Source of the DNA: Candidatus Falkowbacteria bacterium RIFOXYC2_FULL_36_12
GTDB lineage: Bacteria > Patescibacteriota > Patescibacteriia > UBA11705
Assembly (NCBI GenBank): GCA_001778235.1
Contig: MFGJ01000006.1
Coordinates: 98,092 to 162,091 of the forward strand
Direction of reading: 5' to 3'
Length of the DNA: 64,000 nt
Shown here: piece by piece, positions 142 through 54,792 of the stretch
Numbering within the stretch: position 1 is the first letter of the stretch
How the letters are laid out: each line of letters starts with the position of its first letter
Notes under the pieces: generated by a model
The model's input: only the letters and a program-made list of their open reading frames with translations
What the model was told of the DNA's origin: nothing
Database searches by the model: none
Translations under genes and position numbers: made by a program

Positions 142-1539
142 ATGAAAATAAAATTTTGCGGAGCAGACAAGAATGTTACTGGATCAAGACATTTGATTGA
201 GATTAATAATAAAAAAATTTTACTGGACTGTGGTTTGTTCCAAGGTGGTTTTAGTCGTCTGGAAAAGCATAAGATGAACAATAAGTTTCTTTTTGATCCA
301 AAGAAAATTGATGTTGTAATTTTGTCCCATGCGCACATTGATCATGCGGGGAATTTGCCAACATTGGTTAAACAGGGTTTTAAGGGTAAAATTTATTGCA
401 CGAAACCGACGATTGAGTTACTCGGAGTAATGCTTGAAGATTCAGCCAAGATTCAAGCTCAAGATGTTGATTATTTGAAAAAAAGATTTGAAGCTGTAAT
501 TGAACCACTATATTCAAAAGTTGATGTTGTGCACACTTTGAAAAAAATGGTTGGAGTTGATTATGGTCAATGTTTTGAAGTGGAAGAAGGTTGCAAAGCA
601 ACTTTTTATGATGCTGGTCATGTTCTTGGGTCAGCTCAAACATTATTAGAGATAAAAGAAGGGAATAAAAGCTATAAATTGGTATATACTGGTGATTTGG
701 GTCGGAAAAATATGCCAATTCTCAATGATCCATATCAAATCCTTGAAGCTGATTTTCTCATAACCGAGAGCACCTATGCTGAACACATTCATGATACCTT
801 TGATTATGTTTTTGATGAGATGAAATGGGCGATAAATGATGTTGTGGCAAGAGGTGGCAAAATCATTGTTCCGGGTTTTTCTCTTGAGAGAACGCAGGAG
901 CTAGTTTATGTTTTGCATAAACTGTATCTTGATAAGAAAATTCCAGCTGTACCAATTTTCGTTGATAGTCCGATGTCAACAAAAATTTCCAAGGTTTTTA
1001 TGAACAATGTTGATTATTATGATGATCAATCATTTAGAGATTTCCTTGGACGAGCCAGAAGTCCATTCGCATTTAAAAATTTGAAATATATAACTTCAGT
1101 TGAAGAGTCAAAAAAGTTGAATTATTATAAAGGTTCCTGCATAATAATTTCAGCTTCAGGTATGTGTAATGCTGGTAGAATAATCCATCATTTGAAACAT
1201 AATATTGAAAACCCAAAAAATTTAATTTTGATAATTGGTTATATGGCCGAGGGAACACTTGGCCGAAGAATAGTTGAGCAGAAACGAAAGGTGAAAATAT
1301 TTGGTCAATATTATAATTTAAAGGCTGATGTCCTAGCAATGAATGAGTTTTCAGCCCATGCGGACAAGCTTGATTTGCTGGCCAATGTACAGAATATGAA
1401 AAAATTAAAGAAAGTATTTATTGTTCATGGTGAAAAATTCGCAACTTCGTATTTGCGCGATTGTATAAAAAATGTGTTAAAATTTAAAGGTGAGGTAATT
1501 GTCCCCGAGCTCGGTGAAAAGATAATGATAGGAAGTTGA
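142..1539 (+). CDS. MBL-fold metallo-hydrolase of the beta-CASP RNA-processing nuclease family (CPSF73/RNase J-like)
   Basis: HxHxDH motif (SHAHIDHAGNLP), beta-CASP-like C-terminal region, 465 aa, TGA stop. Confidence 0.7.
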   Translation: MKIKFCGADKNVTGSRHLIEINNKKILLDCGLFQGGFSRLEKHKMNNKFLFDPKKIDVVILSHAHIDHAGNLPTLVKQGFKGKIYCTKPTIELLGVMLEDSAKIQAQDVDYLKKRFEAVIEPLYSKVDVVHTLKKMVGVDYGQCFEVEEGCKATFYDAGHVLGSAQTLLEIKEGNKSYKLVYTGDLGRKNMPILNDPYQILEADFLITESTYAEHIHDTFDYVFDEMKWAINDVVARGGKIIVPGFSLERTQELVYVLHKLYLDKKIPAVPIFVDSPMSTKISKVFMNNVDYYDDQSFRDFLGRARSPFAFKNLKYITSVEESKKLNYYKGSCIIISASGMCNAGRIIHHLKHNIENPKNLILIIGYMAEGTLGRRIVEQKRKVKIFGQYYNLKADVLAMNEFSAHADKLDLLANVQNMKKLKKVFIVHGEKFATSYLRDCIKNVLKFKGEVIVPELGEKIMIGS

Positions 1540-8191: not shown

Positions 8192-8800
8192 ATGGGAAAA
8201 AAGGTTTGGGTTGCAATCATGATCGCTGTATTGGTTTCATTGGTTGTGTCGCTCGCAGTAATTTGGTGGTTTTTTCATTACATGACAAGTTCAATGTTAT
8301 TACAACAAAGTGCAAATGATTCAATTCAAAGTGAGATGAGAGATGAAATCAAACAATTGAAAACTGGAACAGCGGTTACAGTCAGTGATAGTACGAAGAT
8401 AGAGGATAGTAATAATGGTGATCAGGCAGATTCTTCAAGCGATAATTCAAGTGAAATTTCGTCTGTTAAAGCTTGTCCAGCTGATAAACATTGTGTTAAT
8501 GGTATTTGTGTGCCGATTGCAACCCCTGATGAATATGGTTGTTCGGTCAATATGGTTTGCGACCAAGGTGAGGTTTGTAGAAATGGTTTATGTGTAAATG
8601 AAGAGACAGCAATAGATATTTTCGGTTGTCATCCTGCCATGACTTGTGATGCTGGTCAGGTGTGTAGACATGGTTTGTGTGTAAATGTGGGAACTGCTCT
8701 TGATGTTTATGGCTGTAGTTCATCGGTAAAGTGTGAAACTGGTCAGGTTTGTCGTAGTGGAAGTTGTGTTGCAGTCGGTAGTGCGTGTTTAGAAAAATAA
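8192..8800 (+). CDS. membrane-anchored Cys-rich repeat protein (4 x C-x4-C-x2-G-x-V-C-R-x-G-x-C-V units)
   Basis: N-terminal TM helix, Ser/Asp-rich linker, four ~35-aa cysteine repeats; followed by terminator at 8812-8842. Confidence 0.6.
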   Translation: MGKKVWVAIMIAVLVSLVVSLAVIWWFFHYMTSSMLLQQSANDSIQSEMRDEIKQLKTGTAVTVSDSTKIEDSNNGDQADSSSDNSSEISSVKACPADKHCVNGICVPIATPDEYGCSVNMVCDQGEVCRNGLCVNEETAIDIFGCHPAMTCDAGQVCRHGLCVNVGTALDVYGCSSSVKCETGQVCRSGSCVAVGSACLEK

Positions 8801-20805: not shown

Positions 20806-23646
20806 ATGAAAAAATTTATATATATAATATTAATCGTATTGATAGTTGTACCAGTGATTGGCAGTGGAATTTCATTTGCAGCTGATTGTCCGCTTCAGCT
20901 CGAATCTGCCTACAAGATAAGTGGCAATAAATCAGTTTATTTCATTACTGATAAATGTCAGAAGCGTCCGTTTAATAATGAGGCAAAATTTTTTTCTTAT
21001 TTCACCAGCTGGGGACAGGTTAAAACAATTGATCAAAGCATTTTACAATCAATTGAAAATGATCAGCTTGGTTTTATGCCTTGGGGGCCTCTGTATAATC
21101 CTAAATACGGTGCAGTAGTCAAGAGCGTGAATGATCCGAAAGTTTATCTTTTGCTAAATGAAAAAAAATATTGGTTTGCGTCAGAAAATGTTTTCACCAG
21201 TCTTGGTTACAAGTGGAATTGGATTGAAGATGGGTCAGACAGTTTTATCGCTAAATATGATGAAGGCGGAACAATAAATTATACTGATCACCATCCGAAT
21301 TATACTATTGTTAAATACCCTGATTCAATCAGGGTCTATCAAATTGTGCCTGATCCGTTAAATGATGGGGTACAATTGAAAAAGCATATTGTAAATGAAC
21401 AGGCTTTTAATGAGGCTGGTTATCGCTGGGATAGAATTGTAATAATACCAAATTCGGAAATTTATTCTGATTATAATATTCCCAGCGGAGAAATTTCAGC
21501 TGTCAGTGCTTCAATTCTGGAAGTTGAAATTAGTGGCAATGTTAATGTTCTTGATTTAATGAATAAAGATAAGTGGCAAATAGCTTCAGTGGACGATAAT
21601 AATTATTTTGGCGCGAAAAAACCAATAAAAATTGAAAGATTTACTGTGACGCTGGACGCGGAGGACAGAAATAAAAACGGTCAGAATATAAATGACAGAG
21701 TTTTGAGACATTATGTTTATCTGTATTTGCCACAAAATATGAAGTTGGATTATAACTATACTATTACGGGCAATTTTAACTTGACTCCGTATTTTTATAA
21801 TGGGGCGGAAGGTTATTTTCAGTCGCAGTCAAGTCAGGTTGGGCCTTTTACTCTGAATTTTGGCAATGAAGATGGCTTTAGCAAAGCAATTAAAGTGAAC
21901 CAGTTCGCTTATAGCAATAAATCAAACAAGCGATATGCTTACGCTGGTTTTTGGCTCGGCAGTGGCGGAACTTTGAATATTAATTCCAAGGAATATACTA
22001 TTTACAATTGGCAAAATAAACAGATTGTGAAGTCTGCTGTAATGATTGAACGAGGTTATGATGATCTAAGCGGAGAAAATGTGTATGAGATAAATTTAAC
22101 AGGTTTAACACAAGGAAAATATTATATTGAAAATAGCGAACTTGGTAGATCGGCAATTTTTTCGGTGCAAGATAATGTTTTTGACGGATTTTACACTGTA
22201 GCTAGAGGATTGTACCAACAGCGTGCTGGAACCAGTTTGCCAGCGGAAAATACTGATTGGAATCATGATTTGTGTCATTCAATTGTATATAAAGTTGATA
22301 TTCTTGAAAATTGGGGACTGGATTTCCCTGCGGGAACCAGCAAACAAAATCCGATTATACTTGAAGGCGGTTGGTATGATGCAGGAGATTTTGATCGGAG
22401 GCCTGTGCATCTAAATACAGTTGAACAATTGTTAGCGACACAAGAGGCTTTTAATAACAGATTGTCGGATAATATTTTGAATATTCCAGAGAGTGGTAAT
22501 GGCTTGCCTGATCTGTTTGACGAGGCTTTGTTCGGTTTGAAGCTGTTTGAAAAATTGCAGGAGTCTGATGGTGGAGTGCGGGGCGGTGTGCAAACTACAG
22601 GACATCCAAGTGTTGGTAGTTGTCTAGACGACCAATTAATTTATTACACCTATAGCAAGAATGTTTATACTTCATACAAATTTGCGGCTTCAGCTGCGCA
22701 TGCAGGTAGGTTGCTTCGTGACCTTTATGGTCAACCAGCTCGAGGTACAGAATTGATTGAGAAAGCTAAAAAAGCTTTTACTTGGGCTGAAGGACAGTCT
22801 AATCTGGGGACTACAAGTCCGGTAGAGAGAAATGAAGCACAGAAACAATCGGAAATAAATCGGGCTAAAATGTCAGCGACTGGGTCGTTGTTTAGCGCTA
22901 CCAATGATCTAATCTACCAAAATATTTTTTCTGGATTATGGGATGAATTAAGGGGACCGACACATTATGACACGATTTACAGCGCCTGGAATTTTGCTCA
23001 AGCTGGAGGTAACAATTTTGATGTTGAACTGCGTCAGGATGTTAGAAACAGGATTGTTGAATCAGCAAATCAATTTGTTGCGAATATTGATAATAATAAA
23101 TACAGAAATTCCAGAGGACAAGGTTATAATATCGCCTGGGGGACAGGGACAACGGTTACGCAGTATGCTTTTCCAATTGTTCTCGCTTATTCATTTAATC
23201 CTGCACAGGAATATATTGATGCGGTTAATTTGAATATAGATTACCAGCTTGGAGCCAATCCGAACGACATGTCTTGGATTACTGGCATTGGTTATGATTC
23301 GCCAGAATATCCTTTGCACTTAAATTCAATGTATGATGGCATAGAGCAGTCAGTCCCTGGCTTGCCAATCAATGGTCCACACTCAAGAAATTTTGACAGT
23401 GGAGTTTGCGAGCCACAGGATTATTGGCAGTGCATGGTTTACAATGGATTTTCCCCAAGCACAAATTCTGTCCCAAAATTAAAACAATATTCTCCATGGG
23501 CCAGGATGGCGCCGATGAATGAATTTACAGTCTGGACTGATATGGGCTATACAATTGCTTCGTTCGCTTTTCAGTTTGCGGTCAGCGGGCAGAGCGCACC
23601 GGTAAATTTGCAGTTACATGTTGATGATTATCCGCTACATCCTTGA
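20806..23646 (+). CDS. large secreted protein with glycoside hydrolase family 9-like catalytic region
   Basis: signal peptide; GGWYDAGDF (GH9 signature-like), PMNEFTVW region resembling GH9 catalytic Glu motif; 946 aa. Confidence 0.45.
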   Translation: MKKFIYIILIVLIVVPVIGSGISFAADCPLQLESAYKISGNKSVYFITDKCQKRPFNNEAKFFSYFTSWGQVKTIDQSILQSIENDQLGFMPWGPLYNPKYGAVVKSVNDPKVYLLLNEKKYWFASENVFTSLGYKWNWIEDGSDSFIAKYDEGGTINYTDHHPNYTIVKYPDSIRVYQIVPDPLNDGVQLKKHIVNEQAFNEAGYRWDRIVIIPNSEIYSDYNIPSGEISAVSASILEVEISGNVNVLDLMNKDKWQIASVDDNNYFGAKKPIKIERFTVTLDAEDRNKNGQNINDRVLRHYVYLYLPQNMKLDYNYTITGNFNLTPYFYNGAEGYFQSQSSQVGPFTLNFGNEDGFSKAIKVNQFAYSNKSNKRYAYAGFWLGSGGTLNINSKEYTIYNWQNKQIVKSAVMIERGYDDLSGENVYEINLTGLTQGKYYIENSELGRSAIFSVQDNVFDGFYTVARGLYQQRAGTSLPAENTDWNHDLCHSIVYKVDILENWGLDFPAGTSKQNPIILEGGWYDAGDFDRRPVHLNTVEQLLATQEAFNNRLSDNILNIPESGNGLPDLFDEALFGLKLFEKLQESDGGVRGGVQTTGHPSVGSCLDDQLIYYTYSKNVYTSYKFAASAAHAGRLLRDLYGQPARGTELIEKAKKAFTWAEGQSNLGTTSPVERNEAQKQSEINRAKMSATGSLFSATNDLIYQNIFSGLWDELRGPTHYDTIYSAWNFAQAGGNNFDVELRQDVRNRIVESANQFVANIDNNKYRNSRGQGYNIAWGTGTTVTQYAFPIVLAYSFNPAQEYIDAVNLNIDYQLGANPNDMSWITGIGYDSPEYPLHLNSMYDGIEQSVPGLPINGPHSRNFDSGVCEPQDYWQCMVYNGFSPSTNSVPKLKQYSPWARMAPMNEFTVWTDMGYTIASFAFQFAVSGQSAPVNLQLHVDDYPLHP

Positions 23647-29477: not shown

Positions 29478-30006
29478 CTACCAGTGAAATAACAAAGTAT
29501 GGTGTAGTTTCATTGGGATAGAATTGATGATGAATGTCAATACCCCAATCAAGGAATTCTGCCAAAAATTCATTAGTCAGCCATGAATTTATAAAGGCAT
29601 GGCATTCAGCTTTTTGTTTATCTGCATTACGGGTGACAATTTTTTGCAAAGCATGAGATTCGAGGAGGTCCATTGCCTCAAGTGCATCTGAAATATCATT
29701 TACAAAAAAATGAATATATTCTGTGTTAGTAATTCTGACTCTGATTGTTCGGTTGCAATCTTTTTCCCAATTATTAGTTTCTTTTACTGCATAACAGGCG
29801 ATAAGATCAGCGCTGTGGATTTCAATATAGCCAATGAGTTCAAGGTTTAGAAGTTTTTGCACTGAAGCAATGGCAGAATCACGAAATCTTAGTTTTAGCC
29901 AAGTGTTAATCGTGATTGATGCAAGTCGGTGTTCTATTGTGTTTTTGTTCATTTTTTGTCCTGTTTTTTGTTGTGAAGGTGCGTTTTTGATTTTAAATAT
30001 TATCAT
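29323..30006 (-). CDS. hypothetical protein
   Basis: ORF only; probable start MNKNTIEHRL near 29950. Confidence 0.3.
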   Translation of the reverse strand: MIIFKIKNAPSQQKTGQKMNKNTIEHRLASITINTWLKLRFRDSAIASVQKLLNLELIGYIEIHSADLIACYAVKETNNWEKDCNRTIRVRITNTEYIHFFVNDISDALEAMDLLESHALQKIVTRNADKQKAECHAFINSWLTNEFLAEFLDWGIDIHHQFYPNETTPYFVISLVDAQNIFFTLEISCWSGVLSFTNGTQIRRRFKDPTQIQQILRDQLTKYIEHL

Positions 30007-30162
30007 TATGTATAAAATTTGTCAAGTTTATGGAAAATTTAGATTGTTGTTATAATTTTTTTCTCTTTTTATATGGAGAAAACTTTGAGATACAATTCGG
30101 GAAAATGATAGTAATAATAACTATTTTTTATTCCTAGAATTACATTAAAATACCTCAATTCA

Positions 30163-30191
30163 TTGACATTTTGTGTAAAATATGATATAAT
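30163..30191 (+). promoter_or_regulatory. sigma70 consensus promoter TTGACA-17-TATAAT upstream of high-GC gene
   Basis: TTGACA 30163-30168, 17-bp spacer, TATAAT 30186-30191; followed by GGAGGG SD at 30241-30247. Confidence 0.55.
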
Positions 30192-30250
30192 TAATATTGT
30201 AACTGTTCTTTAACTTGGCGCGTTTCGCGCCATTGCCCAGGAGGGAAATC

Positions 30251-30829
30251 GTGAAGAGCTTCCGAATGGTGTCGCTGATCGTGTTGGTTCTGGTCGTGAC
30301 CGCGGGTGGGGGGCAGAAATGCTCCCCGCCGGTGCCGATGGAGGATACCTGCAACGAGATCGCGTCCGAGTGCAACTCGGACGACGACTGCTGTTCCGGC
30401 TTCTGCTGGACCAGCAGTGAGTTCTTCGGCTCGCAGAAGTCCTGCCAGCCGAACGACAATCTCCACTGCAGTCAGGACACTGACTGCAGGATTGGAGACT
30501 TCTGCGCCGAAGACGGCTTCTGCGTCCAGAACGCAGGACCGTGCGTTAGCGAATGGACGCAGTCGTGCAACATCGGCGGACCCGTCGATTTCACCGAGTG
30601 CGTTCGCGCTCGGAGCGGAGAACTTCACCAGCGGGTCTTCACCTGCAACAGTGGGTTGACCTGCGTGTTCATCTCGCAGGAGCAGGTACAGTGCCAGCCA
30701 GTCGTAGATCACGAGTACACGCAGTGTAGCGATGGCGCTGACTGCGCGGACGGTTCGTTCTTGTGCGAAAATGGTCGGTGCGAACTGGAATGTCGGGACG
30801 ACAGTGACTGTCGGACCGAGGAAGGCTAG
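30251..30829 (+). CDS. secreted Cys-rich repeat protein, N-terminal part up to in-frame TAG (high-GC island)
   Basis: GTG 30251 / ATG 30266 after SD; signal-peptide-like MVSLIVLVLVVTAGG; C-x4-C-x2-G-x-C-x2-G-x-C repeats; ~65% GC. Confidence 0.5.
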   Translation: MKSFRMVSLIVLVLVVTAGGGQKCSPPVPMEDTCNEIASECNSDDDCCSGFCWTSSEFFGSQKSCQPNDNLHCSQDTDCRIGDFCAEDGFCVQNAGPCVSEWTQSCNIGGPVDFTECVRARSGELHQRVFTCNSGLTCVFISQEQVQCQPVVDHEYTQCSDGADCADGSFLCENGRCELECRDDSDCRTEEG

Positions 30830-30952
30830 TTCTGCTACCGCTTCAGCGGGACCTGTCGGTACTCGGAGAACGGCCACTACTGCAACAGCTCGGACCAGTG
30901 TCCGGGCTACATCACCGAGGCCAACCAGTTCCCGATCAACAACCAGCTCTGT

Positions 30953-31675
30953 GTGCAGGGGGACTGTAGCACGAGCTACGGTCCCTGCGGTAACTCCAGC
31001 TACCAGATGTGCGATGACGAGAATAATGTCAACATCTGGAGCTGCGTCCAGACCAGCGAAGACGACTGGGTCTGGACGCATAGCATGTGTCCGGATGACA
31101 TGCGCTGTGTGGAATACGCACTCGGTCTTGGCATCTGTCAGTTCCAGGCCCTGCCGGAAAGCAAGATCATGGTTCAGCGCTTGAGTAGCAGTACGATGTT
31201 GATCTACGGCGCGGAGAACACCATGATCAGCTTCAACCTGATCAACTACCCGGTGGACCAGGAGAACAACGGCGAGACCGCTCTCGTGACATCGGTCACT
31301 ATTTCGGTGCTGATGTCGAGCGAAGAGTACAATCGCCTGTTGAATTGCAGCTTGAGGTCCTTGTCGTCGTGGCAGATGCTCGACTTCACGGATATCATCG
31401 AGTTGCGGAACAGAGATGACGGAAGTTCGTTCGCCGTCATCAACTTCTCGCTGACCAACGGCTACATGGTCCCGGCTGGAGTGAGTTCTCCTTTGACTGT
31501 TCAGTGCTTCATCGCGCCGAGCAGCCAGATCTACGAGCCCGAGGCAGTGCAATCCGGGTTCATTCCCAGCCTGGGGACCAGTCCTGGGACCGCGATCGTG
31601 GTCTACGGACGAGAGAGTGGTGAGCGCCTCCTGGTCGAGCCTGACCAGGATGTGTTCAACACCCTGACCAACTGA
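30953..31675 (+). CDS. C-terminal continuation of the same high-GC gene (same frame as 30251..30829; Cys repeats then ~200 aa Cys-poor domain)
   Basis: same reading frame as upstream ORF, only one TAG (30827-30829) between them; repeat register continues across the TAG. Confidence 0.5.
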   Translation: MQGDCSTSYGPCGNSSYQMCDDENNVNIWSCVQTSEDDWVWTHSMCPDDMRCVEYALGLGICQFQALPESKIMVQRLSSSTMLIYGAENTMISFNLINYPVDQENNGETALVTSVTISVLMSSEEYNRLLNCSLRSLSSWQMLDFTDIIELRNRDDGSSFAVINFSLTNGYMVPAGVSSPLTVQCFIAPSSQIYEPEAVQSGFIPSLGTSPGTAIVVYGRESGERLLVEPDQDVFNTLTN

Positions 31676-31870
31676 TCCTTCCTAAGAAGTTCTTTCATCC
31701 CAATTCAGGGACAACAAACCTTAAAACAGGAAAGCTTCCACTCAATGAGTCGGGAGTTTTTCTTTTTGAAATAGTAATATTGAAATATTGTGATAATGAA
31801 ATATTGGGTGATTGTATTGGAATGTTGACAAAACATCTGAACACGACAATAATATAATGAAAGAAAATAT

Positions 31871-32479
31871 TTGGAATTGCGTAATATATTTATAACTATG
31901 TCTACTAAAATAGTAGAAAAAACTGATGCTGAATTAGTTGAGTTAGCGCTTGAAAACCAAGCGTATTTTTCGGATATTGTTTATAGGTATCAAACAAAAC
32001 TGACTTATTATATCAGGCGATTATCAAATTTTCCTGATGAAGAAATAGAGGATATTTTACAGGATGTTTTTATCAAAGTTTATAAAAATCTGAACGATTT
32101 TGATCAAAGTTTAAAATTTTCTTCATGGATTTATCGTATTACCCATAATGAGGTTATCAGCAAATATAGAAAAATAAAACAACAAAATATTATTTCGATT
32201 GAAATTCTTACTGATGATATTTTGAATAAATTGGAACATGAAGTAAGTATTGTAGAAACATTAGAAAATAATGAAAAAAAGGAAATTATAAAGCAGGTTT
32301 TAGCTCTGATGGATTTAAAATATCGCGAAGTTTTGGTACTAAAATATTTTGAAGAATTGGACTATAAAGAAATTTCCGATGTTTTGAAGAAACCAACTGG
32401 TACGATTGCCACTTTACTTAACAGAGCTAAGAAACAATTTAATAAAACATGCATTGATCTAAACCTAAAATATGAATGA
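31871..32479 (+). CDS. ECF-type RNA polymerase sigma-70 family sigma factor
   Basis: region 2 (DVFIKVYKNLNDFD...FSSWIYRITHNEVI) and region 4 HTH (YKEISDVLKKPTGTIATLLNRAKKQF); probable start MSTKIV at 31898. Confidence 0.75.
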   Translation: MELRNIFITMSTKIVEKTDAELVELALENQAYFSDIVYRYQTKLTYYIRRLSNFPDEEIEDILQDVFIKVYKNLNDFDQSLKFSSWIYRITHNEVISKYRKIKQQNIISIEILTDDILNKLEHEVSIVETLENNEKKEIIKQVLALMDLKYREVLVLKYFEELDYKEISDVLKKPTGTIATLLNRAKKQFNKTCIDLNLKYE

Positions 32480-33200
32480 GAACAATTTAGTAGATAAAAT
32501 TTCAGAACAAATCAAGAAAGAAAACATAGAGCCTAAATCAAAGTGGGGTTTTGTTTTCAAGTCTTATTTTTTCTGGGTAATGTTTGCTACGGCCCTATTT
32601 TTCGGAAGCTTGGCTTGTGGAATAATTTTTTTCTTGAGTCAAAATAGTATTGTTCTTGGCGAAGAAAAGATAAAGGTATTGTCACTGGTGATCGGATTTT
32701 GGTTTGTTGCTTTGACTGTTTTGATATATTTATCTTATCTTAATTTTCAGCATACCAAGCATGGATACAAATATAATCAATTGTTAGTTGTTGTTATTTG
32801 TGTTTTTGCAAGTGTAGCGATTGGCTTTGGTCTTTATAGTTATGCTGACATGAGGATTGTTGAGAATTCAATGTATAATAAATTTCCAATGTATCGTCAG
32901 GTTTTTAAACAAGGCTTCAAAAATTCCTTTAAGCCTGATGAAGGAAATTTATTGGGTGTTGTGATGGAAATAGGTGACCAGCAGTTTTTGCTTGATGACA
33001 TTCGTGGACAGGATTGGCAGATATTATTTAAAAATGTCCAGCAATTGAAAAGAGGGGAAAGAGTTCATGTAATTGGACGAGTTTTGGTTAAACCAGCGGA
33101 TAGAATGGGATTTATTATGTTTGAAGCTGATGATGTTTTGCCAATGCTACGAGGACCGATGTTTTGTGTGTCTGAAATGCCATGTTTTGAAAGAAAATAA
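32472..33200 (+). CDS. membrane protein, candidate anti-sigma factor (by position only)
   Basis: start overlaps sigma-factor stop (ATGA), 3-4 TM helices. Confidence 0.35.
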   Translation: MNENNLVDKISEQIKKENIEPKSKWGFVFKSYFFWVMFATALFFGSLACGIIFFLSQNSIVLGEEKIKVLSLVIGFWFVALTVLIYLSYLNFQHTKHGYKYNQLLVVVICVFASVAIGFGLYSYADMRIVENSMYNKFPMYRQVFKQGFKNSFKPDEGNLLGVVMEIGDQQFLLDDIRGQDWQILFKNVQQLKRGERVHVIGRVLVKPADRMGFIMFEADDVLPMLRGPMFCVSEMPCFERK

Positions 33201-54255: not shown

Positions 54256-54329
54256 GGGCCGTTAGCTCCAATTGGTAGAGCGGCGGATTGTGGTTCCGTT
54301 TGTTACGGGTTCGAATCCCGTACGGCCCA
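54256..54329 (+). tRNA. tRNA-His(GUG), non-canonical: no encoded G-1, A73, no encoded CCA
   Basis: acceptor GGGCCGT/ACGGCCC, anticodon stem GCGGA/TCCGT with loop TTGTGGT, T-loop TTCGAAT; nucleotide -1 is C, discriminator is A. Confidence 0.7.
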
Positions 54330-54333
54330 CTCC

Positions 54334-54715: not shown

Positions 54716-54792
54716 GGCGGCTGTAGCTCAGTTGGTAGAGCGCTGGTTTGTGGTACCAGTGGTCGCGGGTTCAAATCCCGTCGGTCGCCCCA
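54716..54792 (+). tRNA. tRNA-His(GUG), canonical bacterial type with encoded G-1, C73 and CCA
   Basis: G-1 (54716) opposite C73 (54789); acceptor GCGGCTG/CGGTCGC (two G-U), anticodon stem CTGGT/ACCAG with loop TTGTGGT, T-loop TTCAAAT. Confidence 0.8.

What the first reader, a model, noticed from the sequence alone, without database searches (positions are those of the whole stretch)
30160..31700. High-GC (~60-67%) foreign island encoding a secreted Cys-rich repeat protein with a consensus promoter and an in-frame amber codon
Seen directly in the sequence:
- The window averages ~30-35% GC, but ~30225-31680 is strikingly GC-rich (30301-30360 has 40/60 G+C) with abrupt AT-rich flanks.
- A GGAGGG Shine-Dalgarno at 30241-30247 precedes GTG 30251 / ATG 30266. 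The N-terminus, MVSLIVLVLVVTAGG, looks like a signal peptide.
- The protein then carries >60 cysteines in repeated C-x4-C-x2-G-x(1-2)-C-x2-G-x-C units, followed by a ~200 aa Cys-poor C-terminal domain.
- The two track ORFs 30215..30829 and 30953..31675 are in the same frame, separated only by TAG 30827-30829.
- The repeat register runs straight through the TAG (CRDDSDCRTEEG*FCYRFSGTC). This is therefore one ~475-aa gene with a single internal amber codon, either a very recent nonsense mutation or stop-codon readthrough.
- A perfect TTGACA-17-TATAAT promoter (30163-30191) sits in the AT-rich flank.
- The minus-strand 453-aa ORF over the same span is a GC artefact.

Inference:
- This looks like horizontal acquisition from a high-GC donor. 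For an epibiotic reduced-genome bacterium, a high-GC host such as an actinobacterium is an obvious candidate.
- The alternative is a chimeric assembly.
- The native AT-rich gene 8192..8800 uses the same Cys-repeat architecture, so the family appears functionally relevant to this lineage, e.g. as a surface or host-interaction protein.
Basis: partly seen in the sequence, partly recalled or inferred. Interest (0 to 1): 0.85.

Follow-up and report, generated by a model that had tools for sequence, protein, structure and literature searches.

The report
GC-rich secreted-protein gene, not foreign
A strikingly GC-rich gene for a secreted, cysteine-rich surface-type protein in an AT-rich Falkowbacteria genome is not a recent foreign insert: related bacteria keep the same gene in the same place with the same odd GC-rich, strongly folding coding sequence, and this copy has been cut short by a single C-to-T stop mutation.

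Summary
Window 30215-31740 is 57% GC against 34% elsewhere, and third codon positions are 80% GC against about 27%. It holds one 474-codon reading frame with the only perfect TTGACA-17-TATAAT promoter in the window, a Shine-Dalgarno site, a signal peptide and one in-frame TAG. The cysteine count is 37, not more than 60.

The "foreign island or chimera" reading fails.
- The same sequence occurs in six assemblies.
- Two other Falkowbacteria-type lineages carry an intact orthologue (27-38% identity, all cysteines conserved). It sits in the same slot, upstream of the same ECF-sigma gene block, behind a homologous AT-rich promoter.
- Those orthologues have GC3 of 0.77-0.81 inside flanks of 0.2-0.47, although synonymous sites are saturated.
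- A sister subfamily sharing the C-terminal beta-sandwich domain shows the same contrast at a second conserved locus. All eight loci with retrievable DNA show it.
- No homologue was found in a GC-rich genome.

The TAG replaces an invariant CAG (Gln). It is a lineage-specific nonsense mutation, not recoding.

These GC-rich genes also fold more stably than synonymous shuffles (16 genes against 19 controls, p = 4e-5). This points to pressure at the nucleic-acid level. The mechanism is unknown. Public annotation calls the antisense shadow ORF instead.

The parts
30163..30191 (+). Sigma-70 promoter TTGACA-17-TATAAT with extended-10 TG, in an 18% GC flank
   Evidence: 12/12 match. Only occurrence in the window, with 0.05 expected. 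Homologous promoter blocks (TTGAC, ATATGATATAAT) stand upstream of the L007 and L008 orthologues. TTGAC-N15-TGnTAnnnT precedes every GC-rich family gene examined.
30216..30232 (+). 5'-UTR stem-loop (U)GGCGCG-UUU-CGCGCC(A), where GC-rich sequence begins
   Evidence: Seven-pair hairpin in the MFE fold of 30198-30260, z = -2.25 against shuffles. A role in mRNA protection is inference.
30239..30245 (+). Shine-Dalgarno site AGGAGGG, 5 nt before GTG 30251
   Evidence: Read. GTG 30251 aligns with the ATG starts of both orthologues.
30251..31675 (+). Single 474-codon reading frame (GTG start, TGA stop) interrupted by one TAG. GC 58%, GC3 80%.
   Evidence: Orthologues are intact: 473 aa at L007:9470-10891 and about 493 aa at L008:6797-8278.
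30251..30304 (+). Predicted Sec signal peptide MKSFRMVSLIVLVLVVTA, then GGG
   Evidence: Positive N-terminal region, ten-residue hydrophobic core, small residues before GGG. The sister subfamily has AxA-GGGPP at the same place. No signal-peptide predictor was available, so this is inferred from sequence.
30320..31138 (+). Cys-rich region with 35 Cys: four-Cys knots (C-x5-C-x5-7-C-x4-6-C) alternating with two six-Cys modules
   Evidence: Cys positions. Every one of these Cys is invariant in the three-orthologue alignment. The AF2 model has low confidence here.
30827..30829 (+). In-frame amber codon, derived from CAG (Gln) by one C-to-T transition
   Evidence: Codon alignment reads GGC TAG TTC TGC TAC here, GGG CAG CTC TGC TAC in L007 and GAG CAG TTC TGC TAC in L008. 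Gln is invariant. The TAG is present in all six assemblies.
31148..31672 (+). C-terminal domain of about 175 aa, an all-beta sandwich. It defines the family, with the motif GF-x-P-x-LGT-x-P-x-x-AI-x-V-x-G.
31721..31769 (+). Intrinsic-terminator-like long hairpin flanked by an A-run and a U-run
   Evidence: MFE fold of 31676-31775 gives -27.2 kcal/mol, z = -3.06. Comparable hairpin-plus-T-run terminators follow the family genes in L007, L008, L016 and L017.
30191..31552 (-). Antisense shadow ORF of 453 aa. Not a gene, but it is what public annotation calls here.
   Evidence: Codon-position GC is 0.79/0.45/0.49, mirroring the sense frame. It is broken into 179 and 341 aa in L007. It is called as the gene in L001-L004 and deposited as OGF32326.1, OGF34543.1 and UniRef100_A0A1F5T0R1.
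30363..31650 (+). Five perfect local hairpins inside the CDS: 30363-30383, 30466-30489, 31043-31080, 31415-31441, 31629-31650
   Evidence: Five stems of 8 bp or more, against 0.96 expected from dinucleotide-preserving synonymous shuffles. None of 200 shuffles reached five. This excess is specific to the window's copy.

Best explanation
This is a native, vertically inherited gene of a Candidatus Falkowbacteria lineage (Patescibacteria/CPR). It is not a recently imported island.

Anatomy. It is a self-contained, strongly promoted, single-gene unit:
- a consensus extended-10 sigma-70 promoter;
- a 5' hairpin and a strong Shine-Dalgarno site;
- a coding sequence for a Sec-secreted protein with a disulphide-rich N-terminal half and a C-terminal adhesin/cohesin-like beta-sandwich;
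- a terminator.

Composition. The transcribed part, above all the coding sequence, is held at a composition opposite to the rest of the genome. GC3 is about 0.8 and local base pairing is unusually stable. Some force acting on the nucleic acid itself holds it there. I think the most likely force is selection for a GC-rich, highly structured mRNA of a heavily or specially expressed surface protein.

The TAG. In this population a single CAG-to-TAG transition has cut the frame after residue 192. The gene is therefore most likely a very young pseudogene, or at best makes a truncated product.

Shown: conservation, synteny, saturated synonymous sites with retained GC3, origin of the nonsense codon, the fold of the C-terminal domain, and excess RNA structure.

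Inferred: secretion, surface or host-interaction role, high expression, and that selection on mRNA is the cause.

The confidence of 0.7 applies to the core claims: a native conserved gene, actively maintained GC-richness, and a nonsense mutation. For selection on mRNA structure or stability as the cause, my confidence is about 0.35-0.4.
For: The junctions are real. The 2.1 kb spanning both junctions is 100% identical in four assemblies and partly covered in two more. The organism is Ca. Falkowbacteria bacterium RIFOXYA2_FULL_35_8 / RIFOXYC2_FULL_36_12.

Orthologues sit in the same slot.
- L007/L011 (Ca. Falkowbacteria UBA11705) and L008-L010 carry the gene directly upstream of the same ECF sigma, roughly 240-aa, roughly 213-aa and RNase-H-like genes.
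- Both are 60-67% GC inside 30-45% GC flanks.
- GC3 is 0.80, 0.77 and 0.81, against 0.21-0.47 in flank genes.
- All cysteines are invariant.
- The AT-rich promoter and 5' leader are homologous.

Synonymous sites are saturated. Four-fold sites at conserved residues match no more often than chance: 13, 19 and 17 identical, against 18.0 +/- 3.1, 15.5 +/- 2.2 and 16.7 +/- 2.6 expected. The GC3 is therefore an equilibrium, not a relic.

Codon choice is inverted relative to the flanks. C/(C+T) is 0.80 against 0.17, and G/(A+G) is 0.79 against 0.31.

The sister subfamily repeats the pattern. Genes sharing the C-terminal domain have GC3 0.68-0.87 in AT-rich contigs, at a second conserved locus (DciA ... 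UvrD/AddA) with GC-rich companion genes. Each has its own TTGAC-TGn-TAnnnT promoter.

The TAG derives from CAG. TAG is a normal terminator in this genome.

Excess RNA structure.
- Sixteen GC-rich CPR genes all fold more stably than dinucleotide-preserving synonymous shuffles. Median z is -2.2, and the window gene reaches -6.65.
- Nineteen controls have median z of -0.44: ten native AT-rich genes and nine genes from a 61% GC replicon.
- Mann-Whitney one-sided p = 3.8e-5.

The GC rise tracks the transcript. GC runs 18% (promoter), 51% (5'UTR), 58% (CDS), 42% (3'UTR) and 24% (beyond).

Fold. The C-terminal domain model has pLDDT 94.5, and its fold neighbours are surface adhesin and cohesin modules.
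Against: - There are no expression, proteome or population-variation data, so high expression and selection are inferred.
- Only three lineages carry the full architecture, and all window-lineage assemblies come from one aquifer site.
- The upstream flank of the window copy differs from that of the other two lineages.
- Pairwise identities of the gene are roughly equidistant (27-38%), while the flanks group L007 with L008. Some exchange between lineages cannot be excluded.
- Structure z-scores of several family genes (-0.6 to -2.4) overlap the most extreme controls (rpoD at -2.97).
- GC1 and GC2 are also raised. This fits a mutational or repair bias confined to the transcription unit as well as it fits selection.
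- The excess of perfect hairpins is seen only in the window copy and is unexplained.
- The taxonomy of the subfamily-2 contigs was not established.
Confidence: 0.7

Rival explanations
1. Recent horizontal acquisition of a gene from a high-GC donor, for example an actinobacterial host, not yet ameliorated.
For: Abrupt compositional step, and codon usage typical of high-GC bacteria with CTG, CGG, GAG and TCG. The upstream neighbourhood differs from that of the orthologues.
Against: - Syntenic orthologues with a homologous AT-rich promoter exist in two other lineages.
- Synonymous sites are saturated, yet GC3 is about 0.8 in all three.
- There is no integrase and no tRNA gene within about 14 kb. 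Only weak direct repeats (79-85% identity, 13-19 nt) and short or imperfect inverted-repeat arms bracket the island; their chance expectation was not tested.
- No homologue was found in any GC-rich context among 1.84 billion representatives. All eight homologous loci with DNA are AT-rich.
Confidence: 0.04
2. Chimeric assembly. A fragment of a GC-rich organism was mis-joined into the contig.
For: Two public contigs (L005, L006) end inside the island.
Against: - Four assemblies made with different assemblers span both junctions with 100% identity.
- The GC-rich block is exactly one gene fitted between a promoter and a terminator.
- The same arrangement exists in other lineages.
Confidence: 0.01
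3. The GC-richness is maintained by a neutral, locally confined process rather than by selection. Candidates are transcription-coupled repair or transcription-associated mutation bias in an extremely strongly transcribed unit, or GC-biased gene conversion at a frequently recombining surface-protein locus.
For: - The GC rise begins just after the predicted transcription start and falls after the stop and terminator.
- GC1 and GC2 are raised as well as GC3.
- Every such gene has its own near-consensus promoter.
- Roughly equidistant gene identities, against a structured flank tree, hint at recombination.
Against: - A pure composition bias does not predict folding more stable than dinucleotide-preserving synonymous shuffles.
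- The 100-360 bp spacers between tandem GC-rich genes stay at 36-45% GC, which is hard to reconcile with conversion tracts.
- Gene GC3 is about 0.8 whatever the host GC3, from 0.27 to 0.45.
Confidence: 0.25
4. Repeated replacement of the gene by cassettes from a GC-rich mobile pool, such as a GC-rich CPR lineage, phage or plasmid, landing in the same slots.
For: Each gene is an insulated promoter-CDS-terminator cassette. Gene identities are discordant with the flanks. Some CPR lineages are GC-rich (own knowledge).
Against: - This would need at least eight independent events at two loci, each keeping an AT-rich promoter.
- No hits were found in phage or plasmid collections.
- There are no mobility genes or repeats.
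- No family member was found in a GC-rich contig.
Confidence: 0.08
5. The TAG is decoded, through a suppressor tRNA, programmed readthrough or reassignment, and the full-length protein is still made.
For: No second lesion exists in the frame. All family-invariant residues downstream are intact. The promoter is still perfect.
Against: - The orthologues have CAG, not a stop.
- TAG ends 10 of 55 long native ORFs, and conserved genes are full length under code 11.
- None of the five tRNAs in the window is a suppressor.
- No readthrough signal is known to me in this context.
Confidence: 0.1

Closest known systems
Horizontally acquired genomic islands detected by atypical GC or codon usage
   Same: Sharp compositional step, codon usage unlike the host genome, single-gene cargo encoding a secreted protein.
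   Different: - It is conserved at the syntenic site in diverged relatives.
- It has no mobility signatures and no donor-lineage homologues.
- Composition has not decayed despite saturated synonymous divergence.
- It is a concrete counter-example of the kind behind the known caveat that composition is a poor indicator of transfer (Koski, Morton and Golding 2001, own knowledge).
Borrelia vls antigenic-variation cassettes: about 49% G+C in a roughly 28.6% genome, held by selection (PMC11499132)
   Same: Surface-protein coding DNA kept far more GC-rich than an AT-rich genome across diverged strains. [quoted passage not shown]
   Different: - There is no strong GC skew here: 0.03-0.11 across 30150-31649, at or below the 0.2-0.3 of the flanks.
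- There are no G-runs or silent cassette arrays, and no repeat of the gene elsewhere in the window.
- Each gene is a single expressed unit with its own promoter.
Small disulphide-rich modules: Pfam DUF7107, Stig1, EB module, Dickkopf_N
   Same: Four-Cys spacing of C-x5-C-x5-7-C-x4-6-C with Gly before the last Cys. Orthologues give sub-threshold hits (DUF7107 E = 0.009, Dickkopf_N E = 0.007-0.03).
   Different: The window protein reaches no Pfam threshold. There is no significant similarity to the window's own DUF7107 protein at 8192-8800. The arrangement with two six-Cys modules is not described.
Cohesin and Ig-like beta-sandwich modules of surface adhesins, pilins and integrin thigh/calf domains
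   Different: Identity is 12% or less. There is no Pfam or PDB sequence match, no LPXTG or dockerin partner, and the family-specific motif GF-x-P-x-LGT-x-P-x-x-AI is its own. The similarity says 'binding module on a surface', not membership.
Selection for local mRNA secondary structure in bacterial coding regions (Katz and Burge 2003, own knowledge)
   Same: Native coding sequence folds more stably than synonymous, dinucleotide-preserving shuffles.
   Different: The effect here is gene-class specific and large. Median z is -2.2, reaching -6.65, against about -0.5 in controls. It is coupled to a wholesale inversion of base composition.

Membership tests
Horizontally acquired genomic island | Composition and codon usage atypical for the host genome | tested here: met
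   GC 0.575 against 0.338, and GC3 0.80 against about 0.27.
Horizontally acquired genomic island | Absent from the syntenic site of related genomes (patchy distribution) | tested here: not met
   Orthologues lie directly upstream of the same ECF-sigma block in L007/L011 and L008-L010.
Horizontally acquired genomic island | Mobility signatures at the borders (integrase, tRNA target, flanking direct or inverted repeats) | tested here: not met
   The nearest tRNA is more than 14 kb away. Only weak direct repeats (79-85% identity, 13-19 nt) and imperfect inverted repeats bracket the island; chance not tested. No Pfam mobility domains occur in the neighbours.
Horizontally acquired genomic island | Homologues in a donor lineage of matching composition | tested here: not met
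   Eleven homologues in 1.84 billion representatives. All eight loci with DNA are GC-rich genes in AT-rich contigs. Nothing was found in plasmids or phages.
Horizontally acquired genomic island | Composition decays toward the host's with time (amelioration) | tested here: not met
   Four-fold sites are saturated between orthologues, yet GC3 is 0.77-0.81 in all.
Programmed stop-codon readthrough or TAG reassignment | The in-frame stop is conserved in orthologues | tested here: not met
   CAG (Gln) stands at that codon in L007 and L008.
Programmed stop-codon readthrough or TAG reassignment | TAG is not used as a terminator, or occurs in frame in conserved genes | tested here: not met
   TAG ends 10 of 55 long ORFs. 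DnaG, RpoD, HutH and CshA are full length under code 11.
Programmed stop-codon readthrough or TAG reassignment | Suppressor tRNA (CUA anticodon) or Pyl machinery in the genome | not testable with these tools
   None of the five tRNAs in the window qualifies. The rest of the genome was not available.
Pfam DUF7107 / Stig1 / EB / Dickkopf_N Cys-rich modules | HMM score above the gathering threshold | tested here: not met
   No hit at E of 0.1 or better for the window protein. Orthologues score 15-17 bits against cut-offs of 24.6-25.
Pfam DUF7107 / Stig1 / EB / Dickkopf_N Cys-rich modules | Four-Cys unit with conserved spacing | tested here: met
   CSQDTDCRIGDFCAEDGFC, CSDGADCADGSFLCENGRC and CRDDSDCRTEEG*FCYRFSGTC. 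The Cys are invariant in orthologues.
Cohesin / Ig-like adhesin beta-sandwich | Fold similarity of a confident model | tested here: met
Cohesin / Ig-like adhesin beta-sandwich | Sequence-family membership, or a partner or anchor motif (dockerin, LPXTG) | tested here: not met
   No Pfam hit. Identity is 12% or less. The C-terminus ...VFNTLTN has no sorting motif.
vls-type antigenic-variation locus | Array of silent cassettes, or repeats of the expressed gene | tested here: not met
   blastn and tblastn of the island against the rest of the window found nothing. No tandem copies occur in L007 or L008.
vls-type antigenic-variation locus | Strong coding-strand GC skew with G-runs | tested here: not met
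   GC skew is 0.03-0.11 across the island. For vls it is about 0.52 (PMC11499132).
Large structured non-coding RNA appearing as a GC-rich patch in an AT-rich genome | Match to an RNA family and absence of codon periodicity | tested here: not met
   Only a chance-level Rfam hit (E = 0.79) at the terminator. Three-base periodicity is strong, and the Cys framework is conserved at protein level.
Diversity-generating retroelement target | Template repeat matching a variable region; nearby reverse transcriptase | tested here: not met
   No repeat of any part of the island occurs in the 64-kb window.

The most novel reading that the evidence does not exclude
A set of strongly promoted secreted-protein genes in Patescibacteria is kept, by selection, at a GC-rich, host-like codon usage with heavily base-paired mRNA, as an expression device.

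Two forms of the idea are open:
- the mRNAs are built to survive the cell's own RNA-degrading metabolism;
- they are translated efficiently only when GC-codon-reading tRNAs or host RNA are available, which would couple production of surface proteins to host contact.

The context is a recent preprint reporting that these AT-rich parasites take up RNA from GC-rich hosts and have 'complementary' codon usage (bioRxiv 10.64898/2026.06.21.733656). Nothing here tests the host link.
Probability: 0.12. Interest if true: 0.9.

Novelty: new variant of a known kind. Interest (0 to 1): 0.66.

Why it matters
- It is a clean case of a compositional 'island' that is not horizontal transfer. Orthologues with fully turned-over synonymous sites keep GC3 near 0.8 in genomes at 0.2-0.45. 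This warns against composition-based calls of transfer or contamination in CPR genomes.
- It points to an unrecognised force on nucleotide content and mRNA folding in reduced genomes.
- It exposes a family of secreted, probably surface proteins of Patescibacteria that is almost invisible in protein databases. Gene finders trained on the AT-rich genome pick the antisense shadow ORF or a fragment. Only 11 relatives surfaced among 1.84 billion representatives.
- These genes carry the strongest promoters seen in their neighbourhoods. That makes them good candidates for abundant envelope or host-contact proteins in organisms whose host interface is poorly understood.
- The amber codon itself is ordinary: a fresh loss-of-function mutation.

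Tried and rejected
- Word-indexed protein searches with the full protein and with two alignments found nothing new. Only the exhaustive HMMER scan found relatives.
- blastn against plasmids and phages found no match.
- Pfam found no family for the island protein, the sister subfamily or the GC-rich companion genes.
- An exact look-up of the N-terminal product found it is not on record, because callers take the antisense ORF.
- Genome and metagenome pattern scans with the three-orthologue alignment returned only the already known lineages.
- Rfam gave no real hit.
- A search for template repeats or paralogues of the island in the window found none. DGR or cassette models were therefore dropped.
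- No companion GC-rich genes of the sister locus are present in the window.
- Homology of the island protein to 8192-8800 was rejected at E = 1.2.
- The AF2 model of the Cys-rich half has pLDDT below 50 and is unusable. The afdb50 fold library was unavailable.
- Literature searches for GC-rich genes in CPR or AT-rich genomes, and for the accession, found nothing describing this.
- I looked for reinitiation after the TAG. An SD-like GAGGAAGG precedes it, but no ATG, GTG or TTG follows within range, and a restart product would lack the signal peptide.


Full report
**1. What is in the sequence**

The composition step is real.
- 300-nt windows run at 0.53-0.62 GC between 30150 and 31649. Both flanks are at 0.27-0.32.
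- The block 30215-31740 is 57.5% GC, against 33.8% for the rest of the window.
- The signal is codon-periodic. In the frame of GTG 30251 / ATG 30266, GC at the three codon positions is 0.50/0.45/0.80. Native genes are near 0.4/0.25/0.27.
- GC3 stays at 0.83-0.93 across the TAG at 30827-30829, so 30251-31675 was one 474-codon frame.
- It is the only frame in the window with GC3 above 0.6.
- The 453-aa minus-strand ORF has the mirror pattern, 0.79/0.45/0.49. It is a shadow ORF.

The expression signals are also real.
- The promoter TTGACA-17-TATAAT with an upstream TG at 30163-30191 occurs once in 64 kb, where 0.05 is expected.
- AGGAGGG at 30239-30245 lies five bases before GTG 30251. That GTG aligns with the ATG starts of the orthologues.
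- A seven-pair hairpin at 30216-30232 opens the GC-rich part of the leader. A long hairpin with a U-run at 31721-31769 closes the unit.

- There are 37 cysteines, not more than 60.
- About five four-Cys knots alternate with two six-Cys modules.
- The mean GC is 57-58% rather than 60-67%.

**2. Not a chimera; the organism**

- A neighbouring protein (window 32472-33197) is encoded on 22 public contigs.
- In six retrieved loci the region 29900-32000 is 100% identical. Four of them span both junctions.
- The source names are Candidatus Falkowbacteria bacterium RIFOXYA2_FULL_35_8 and RIFOXYC2_FULL_36_12.
- In all of these assemblies the gene callers annotated the antisense 453-aa ORF. It is deposited as OGF32326.1, OGF34543.1 and UniRef100_A0A1F5T0R1. 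This explains why the word-indexed protein search found nothing.

**3. The decisive result: conserved orthologues with the same anomaly**

The exhaustive HMMER scan gave 11 relatives. The two best cover the TAG position.

Their contigs show the gene in the same slot as in the window. It lies directly upstream of an ECF sigma factor, a roughly 240-aa membrane protein, a roughly 213-aa protein and an RNase-H-like protein.
- One lineage is Ca. Falkowbacteria UBA11705. Its true ORF is an intact 473 codons at L007:9470-10891. The caller had taken an internal ATG because of the shadow ORF.
- The other lineage (L008-L010) has an intact gene of about 493 codons.

Both orthologues share the anomaly.
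- They are 60-67% GC inside 30-45% GC flanks.
- GC3 is 0.77 and 0.81, against 0.24-0.47 for their neighbours.
- All cysteines of the window protein are invariant across the three.
- The AT-rich promoter and leader are alignable: TTGAC, ATATGATATAAT, TGTAAGT..TCTTT.

Divergence is deep.
- Flank proteins are 29-62% identical between the window and the others. The gene itself is 27-38% identical.
- At four-fold sites of conserved residues, the third bases agree no more often than chance: 13, 19 and 17 identical against 18.0 +/- 3.1, 15.5 +/- 2.2 and 16.7 +/- 2.6 expected.
- Synonymous sites have therefore turned over completely, while GC3 stayed near 0.8 in each lineage.

An un-ameliorated import cannot do that.

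**4. A wider class**

The other nine relatives (about 330 aa) share the signal peptide ending AxA-GGGPP and the C-terminal domain, but have a different N-terminal half.

Wherever DNA could be retrieved, they too are GC-rich genes in AT-rich contigs:

| Locus | Family-gene GC3 |
|---|---|
| L015 | 0.80 |
| L016 | 0.86 |
| L017 | 0.87 |
| L019 | 0.79 |
| L021 | 0.68 |
| L022 | 0.86 |

Their neighbours have GC3 of 0.25-0.40.

- In four of these loci (L015, L016, L019, L022) they occupy a second conserved slot downstream of DciA; UvrD/AddA follows in L016, L019 and L022. The L015 contig ends first, L021 has the DciA side only, and L017 has no neighbouring genes.
- They are accompanied by one or two further GC-rich secreted-protein genes.
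- Every one of these genes has its own TTGAC-N15-TGnTAnnnT promoter. Hairpin-plus-T-run terminators follow those whose 3' ends were read (L015, L016, L017).
- The spacers between tandem genes are only 36-45% GC.
- Codon choice is inverted as a whole. In the window gene against its flanks, C/(C+T) is 0.80 against 0.17 and G/(A+G) is 0.79 against 0.31. TTA and AGA nearly vanish.
- No member was found in a GC-rich genome, plasmid or phage.

**5. The amber codon**

- The codon alignment reads GGC TAG TTC TGC TAC in the window, GGG CAG CTC TGC TAC in L007 and GAG CAG TTC TGC TAC in L008. The TAG is one C-to-T transition from an invariant Gln codon.
- TAG terminates 10 of 55 long native ORFs.
- Conserved genes are full length under the standard code.
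- No suppressor tRNA is in the window.
- The truncated product would be 192 residues. It would end in the middle of a four-Cys knot and lack the family-defining domain. A restart product would lack the signal peptide.
- There is no second lesion, and all family-invariant residues downstream are intact. The mutation is therefore young.
- It is fixed in the sampled population.
- I read it as a fresh pseudogene. I leave about 10% for tolerated readthrough.

**6. The protein**

- The N-terminus is a typical Sec signal (inferred from sequence).
- Residues 24-296 carry 35 cysteines. The model there is unreliable.
- Residues from about 300 to 474 fold as an all-beta sandwich with pLDDT 94.5.
- That supports a surface binding module, not membership of any of those families.
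- Pfam gives nothing above threshold.
- The native Cys-rich protein at 8192-8800 is a genuine DUF7107/Stig1/EB protein but is not detectably related.

**7. Why GC-rich? A test that could have failed**

I compared the mean folding energy of 150-nt windows with shuffles that keep the protein, the codon usage and every dinucleotide.

| Gene set | z-scores |
|---|---|
| Window gene | -6.65 |
| Two orthologues | -2.39, -3.39 |
| Eleven further family or companion genes | -0.64 to -4.34 |
| P0008 gene | -3.62 |
| Unrelated GC-rich gene in L007 | -2.13 |
| Ten native AT-rich window genes | mean -0.5, minimum -2.97 |
| Nine genes from a 61% GC rhizobial replicon | mean -0.61, minimum -2.04 |

- Overall, 16 test genes have median z of -2.2 and 19 controls have median -0.44. 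The one-sided Mann-Whitney p is 3.8e-5.
- Synonymous positions are therefore arranged to increase base pairing, beyond what GC content gives.
- The GC rise follows the transcript: 18% in the promoter, 51% in the leader, 58% in the CDS, 42% in the 3'UTR and 24% beyond.
- Together these results favour pressure on the mRNA, for stability or controlled translation, in a strongly transcribed unit. They do not prove it.
- A transcription-linked mutation or repair bias, or biased gene conversion, remains a serious rival for the composition. Neither predicts the folding excess.
- One oddity is unexplained. Only the window's TAG-bearing copy has an excess of perfect hairpins: five stems of 8 bp or more against 0.96 expected, and none of 200 shuffles reached five. 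Quasi-palindrome templated mutation in a relaxed gene is one possibility (inference).

**8. Comparison with what is known**

- It looks like a horizontally acquired island but fails four of five defining features (see the membership table).
- The nearest precedent for a surface-protein locus held GC-rich in an AT-rich genome is the Borrelia vls system: 49% against 28.6% G+C, attributed to selection (PMC11499132). The present genes lack GC skew, G-runs and silent cassettes.
- Selection for mRNA structure in coding regions is known in general (Katz and Burge 2003, own knowledge). It is not known as a gene-class-specific inversion of composition.
- A 2026 preprint reports that AT-rich Patescibacteria take up RNA from GC-rich hosts and have 'complementary' codon usage (10.64898/2026.06.21.733656). 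This makes a host-like codon usage in a few strongly promoted secreted-protein genes intriguing. I have no evidence linking the two.
- I found no paper describing this class.

**9. Verdict**

- 'Foreign island' is wrong.
- 'Single gene with a recent nonsense codon' and 'antisense artefact' are right.
- What remains is more interesting than the original claim. It is a conserved, mis-annotated family of secreted-protein genes in CPR bacteria whose coding sequences are kept GC-rich and strongly folding against the genomic trend, by an unknown mechanism.

Limits of this analysis:
- few lineages;
- one sampling site for the window lineage;
- no expression or polymorphism data;
- modest numbers of control genes;
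- the taxonomy of the second-locus contigs is not established.

Noticed in passing
window 30191-31552 (-): Public annotation (NCBI OGF32326.1 and OGF34543.1, UniRef100_A0A1F5T0R1, and the JGI and ENA gene calls) records the antisense shadow ORF as a 453-aa hypothetical protein and misses the real plus-strand gene. The same kind of miscall hits family members in L007, L016, L021 and L022.
   Followed up: yes
window 30363-31650: There are five perfect hairpins (stems of 8-12 bp) inside the CDS, including CTGCAGTCAG-GACA-CTGACTGCAG, which encodes a C-x5-C loop. They exceed synonymous shuffles (0 of 200 reached five) only in this TAG-bearing copy, not in the orthologues. The cause is unknown.
   Followed up: partly
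L016 6469-9080; L019 5026-8099; L022 939-2686; L015 1510-3260: A second conserved cluster of two or three tandem GC-rich (GC3 0.65-0.89) secreted-protein genes lies downstream of DciA (before UvrD/AddA in L016, L019 and L022; the L015 contig ends first) in other AT-rich contigs. Each gene has its own extended-10 promoter; terminators were read in L015 and L016. The companion proteins of about 205 and 217-235 aa have no Pfam family.
   Followed up: partly
L007 3196-4467; L016 5268-6021 and 12998-13525; L022 180-503: These contigs hold further unrelated genes with raised GC3 (0.81 in L007, 0.80 in L022, about 0.6 in L016). GC-rich coding may therefore be a wider gene class in these genomes.
   Followed up: no
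window 31825-33200: An ECF-type sigma factor (Sigma70_r2/r4_2) and an overlapping 242-aa membrane protein (a likely anti-sigma) lie immediately downstream. They have their own TTGACA-17-AATAAT promoter. The adjacency to the GC-rich gene is conserved in three lineages, so a functional link is possible.
   Followed up: partly
window 8192-8800: This native AT-rich gene encodes a membrane-anchored protein with three or four Cys-rich repeats that pass Pfam DUF7107, Stig1 and EB. It is not detectably homologous to the island protein.
   Followed up: yes
L005 and L006 (window 30468 and 31306): Two public contigs of the same population end inside the GC-rich gene. This may reflect a coverage drop from GC bias or strain heterogeneity at this locus.
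   Followed up: no
window 54256-54330 and 54717-54792: Two tRNA-His(GTG) genes lie about 390 bp apart.
   Followed up: no
window 142-1539: A metallo-beta-lactamase/beta-CASP protein scores E = 1e-122 against the NCBIfam 'type VII CRISPR Cas14' model, but far below its cut-off (410 against 800 bits). It also matches aCPSF1. It is probably an RNase-J/CPSF-like nuclease.
   Followed up: no
window 20806-23646: A 946-aa protein has CelD_N and glycoside hydrolase family 9 domains (a cellulase-like enzyme). This is unusual cargo for a reduced CPR genome.
   Followed up: no
window 30815-30832 and 30914-30931: An internal direct repeat reads ACCGAGGAAGGCTAGTTC and ACCGAGGCCAACCAGTTC (T-E-E-G-stop-F and T-E-A-N-Q-F). 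The second copy has CAG where the first has TAG, which is consistent with CAG being the original codon.
   Followed up: partly
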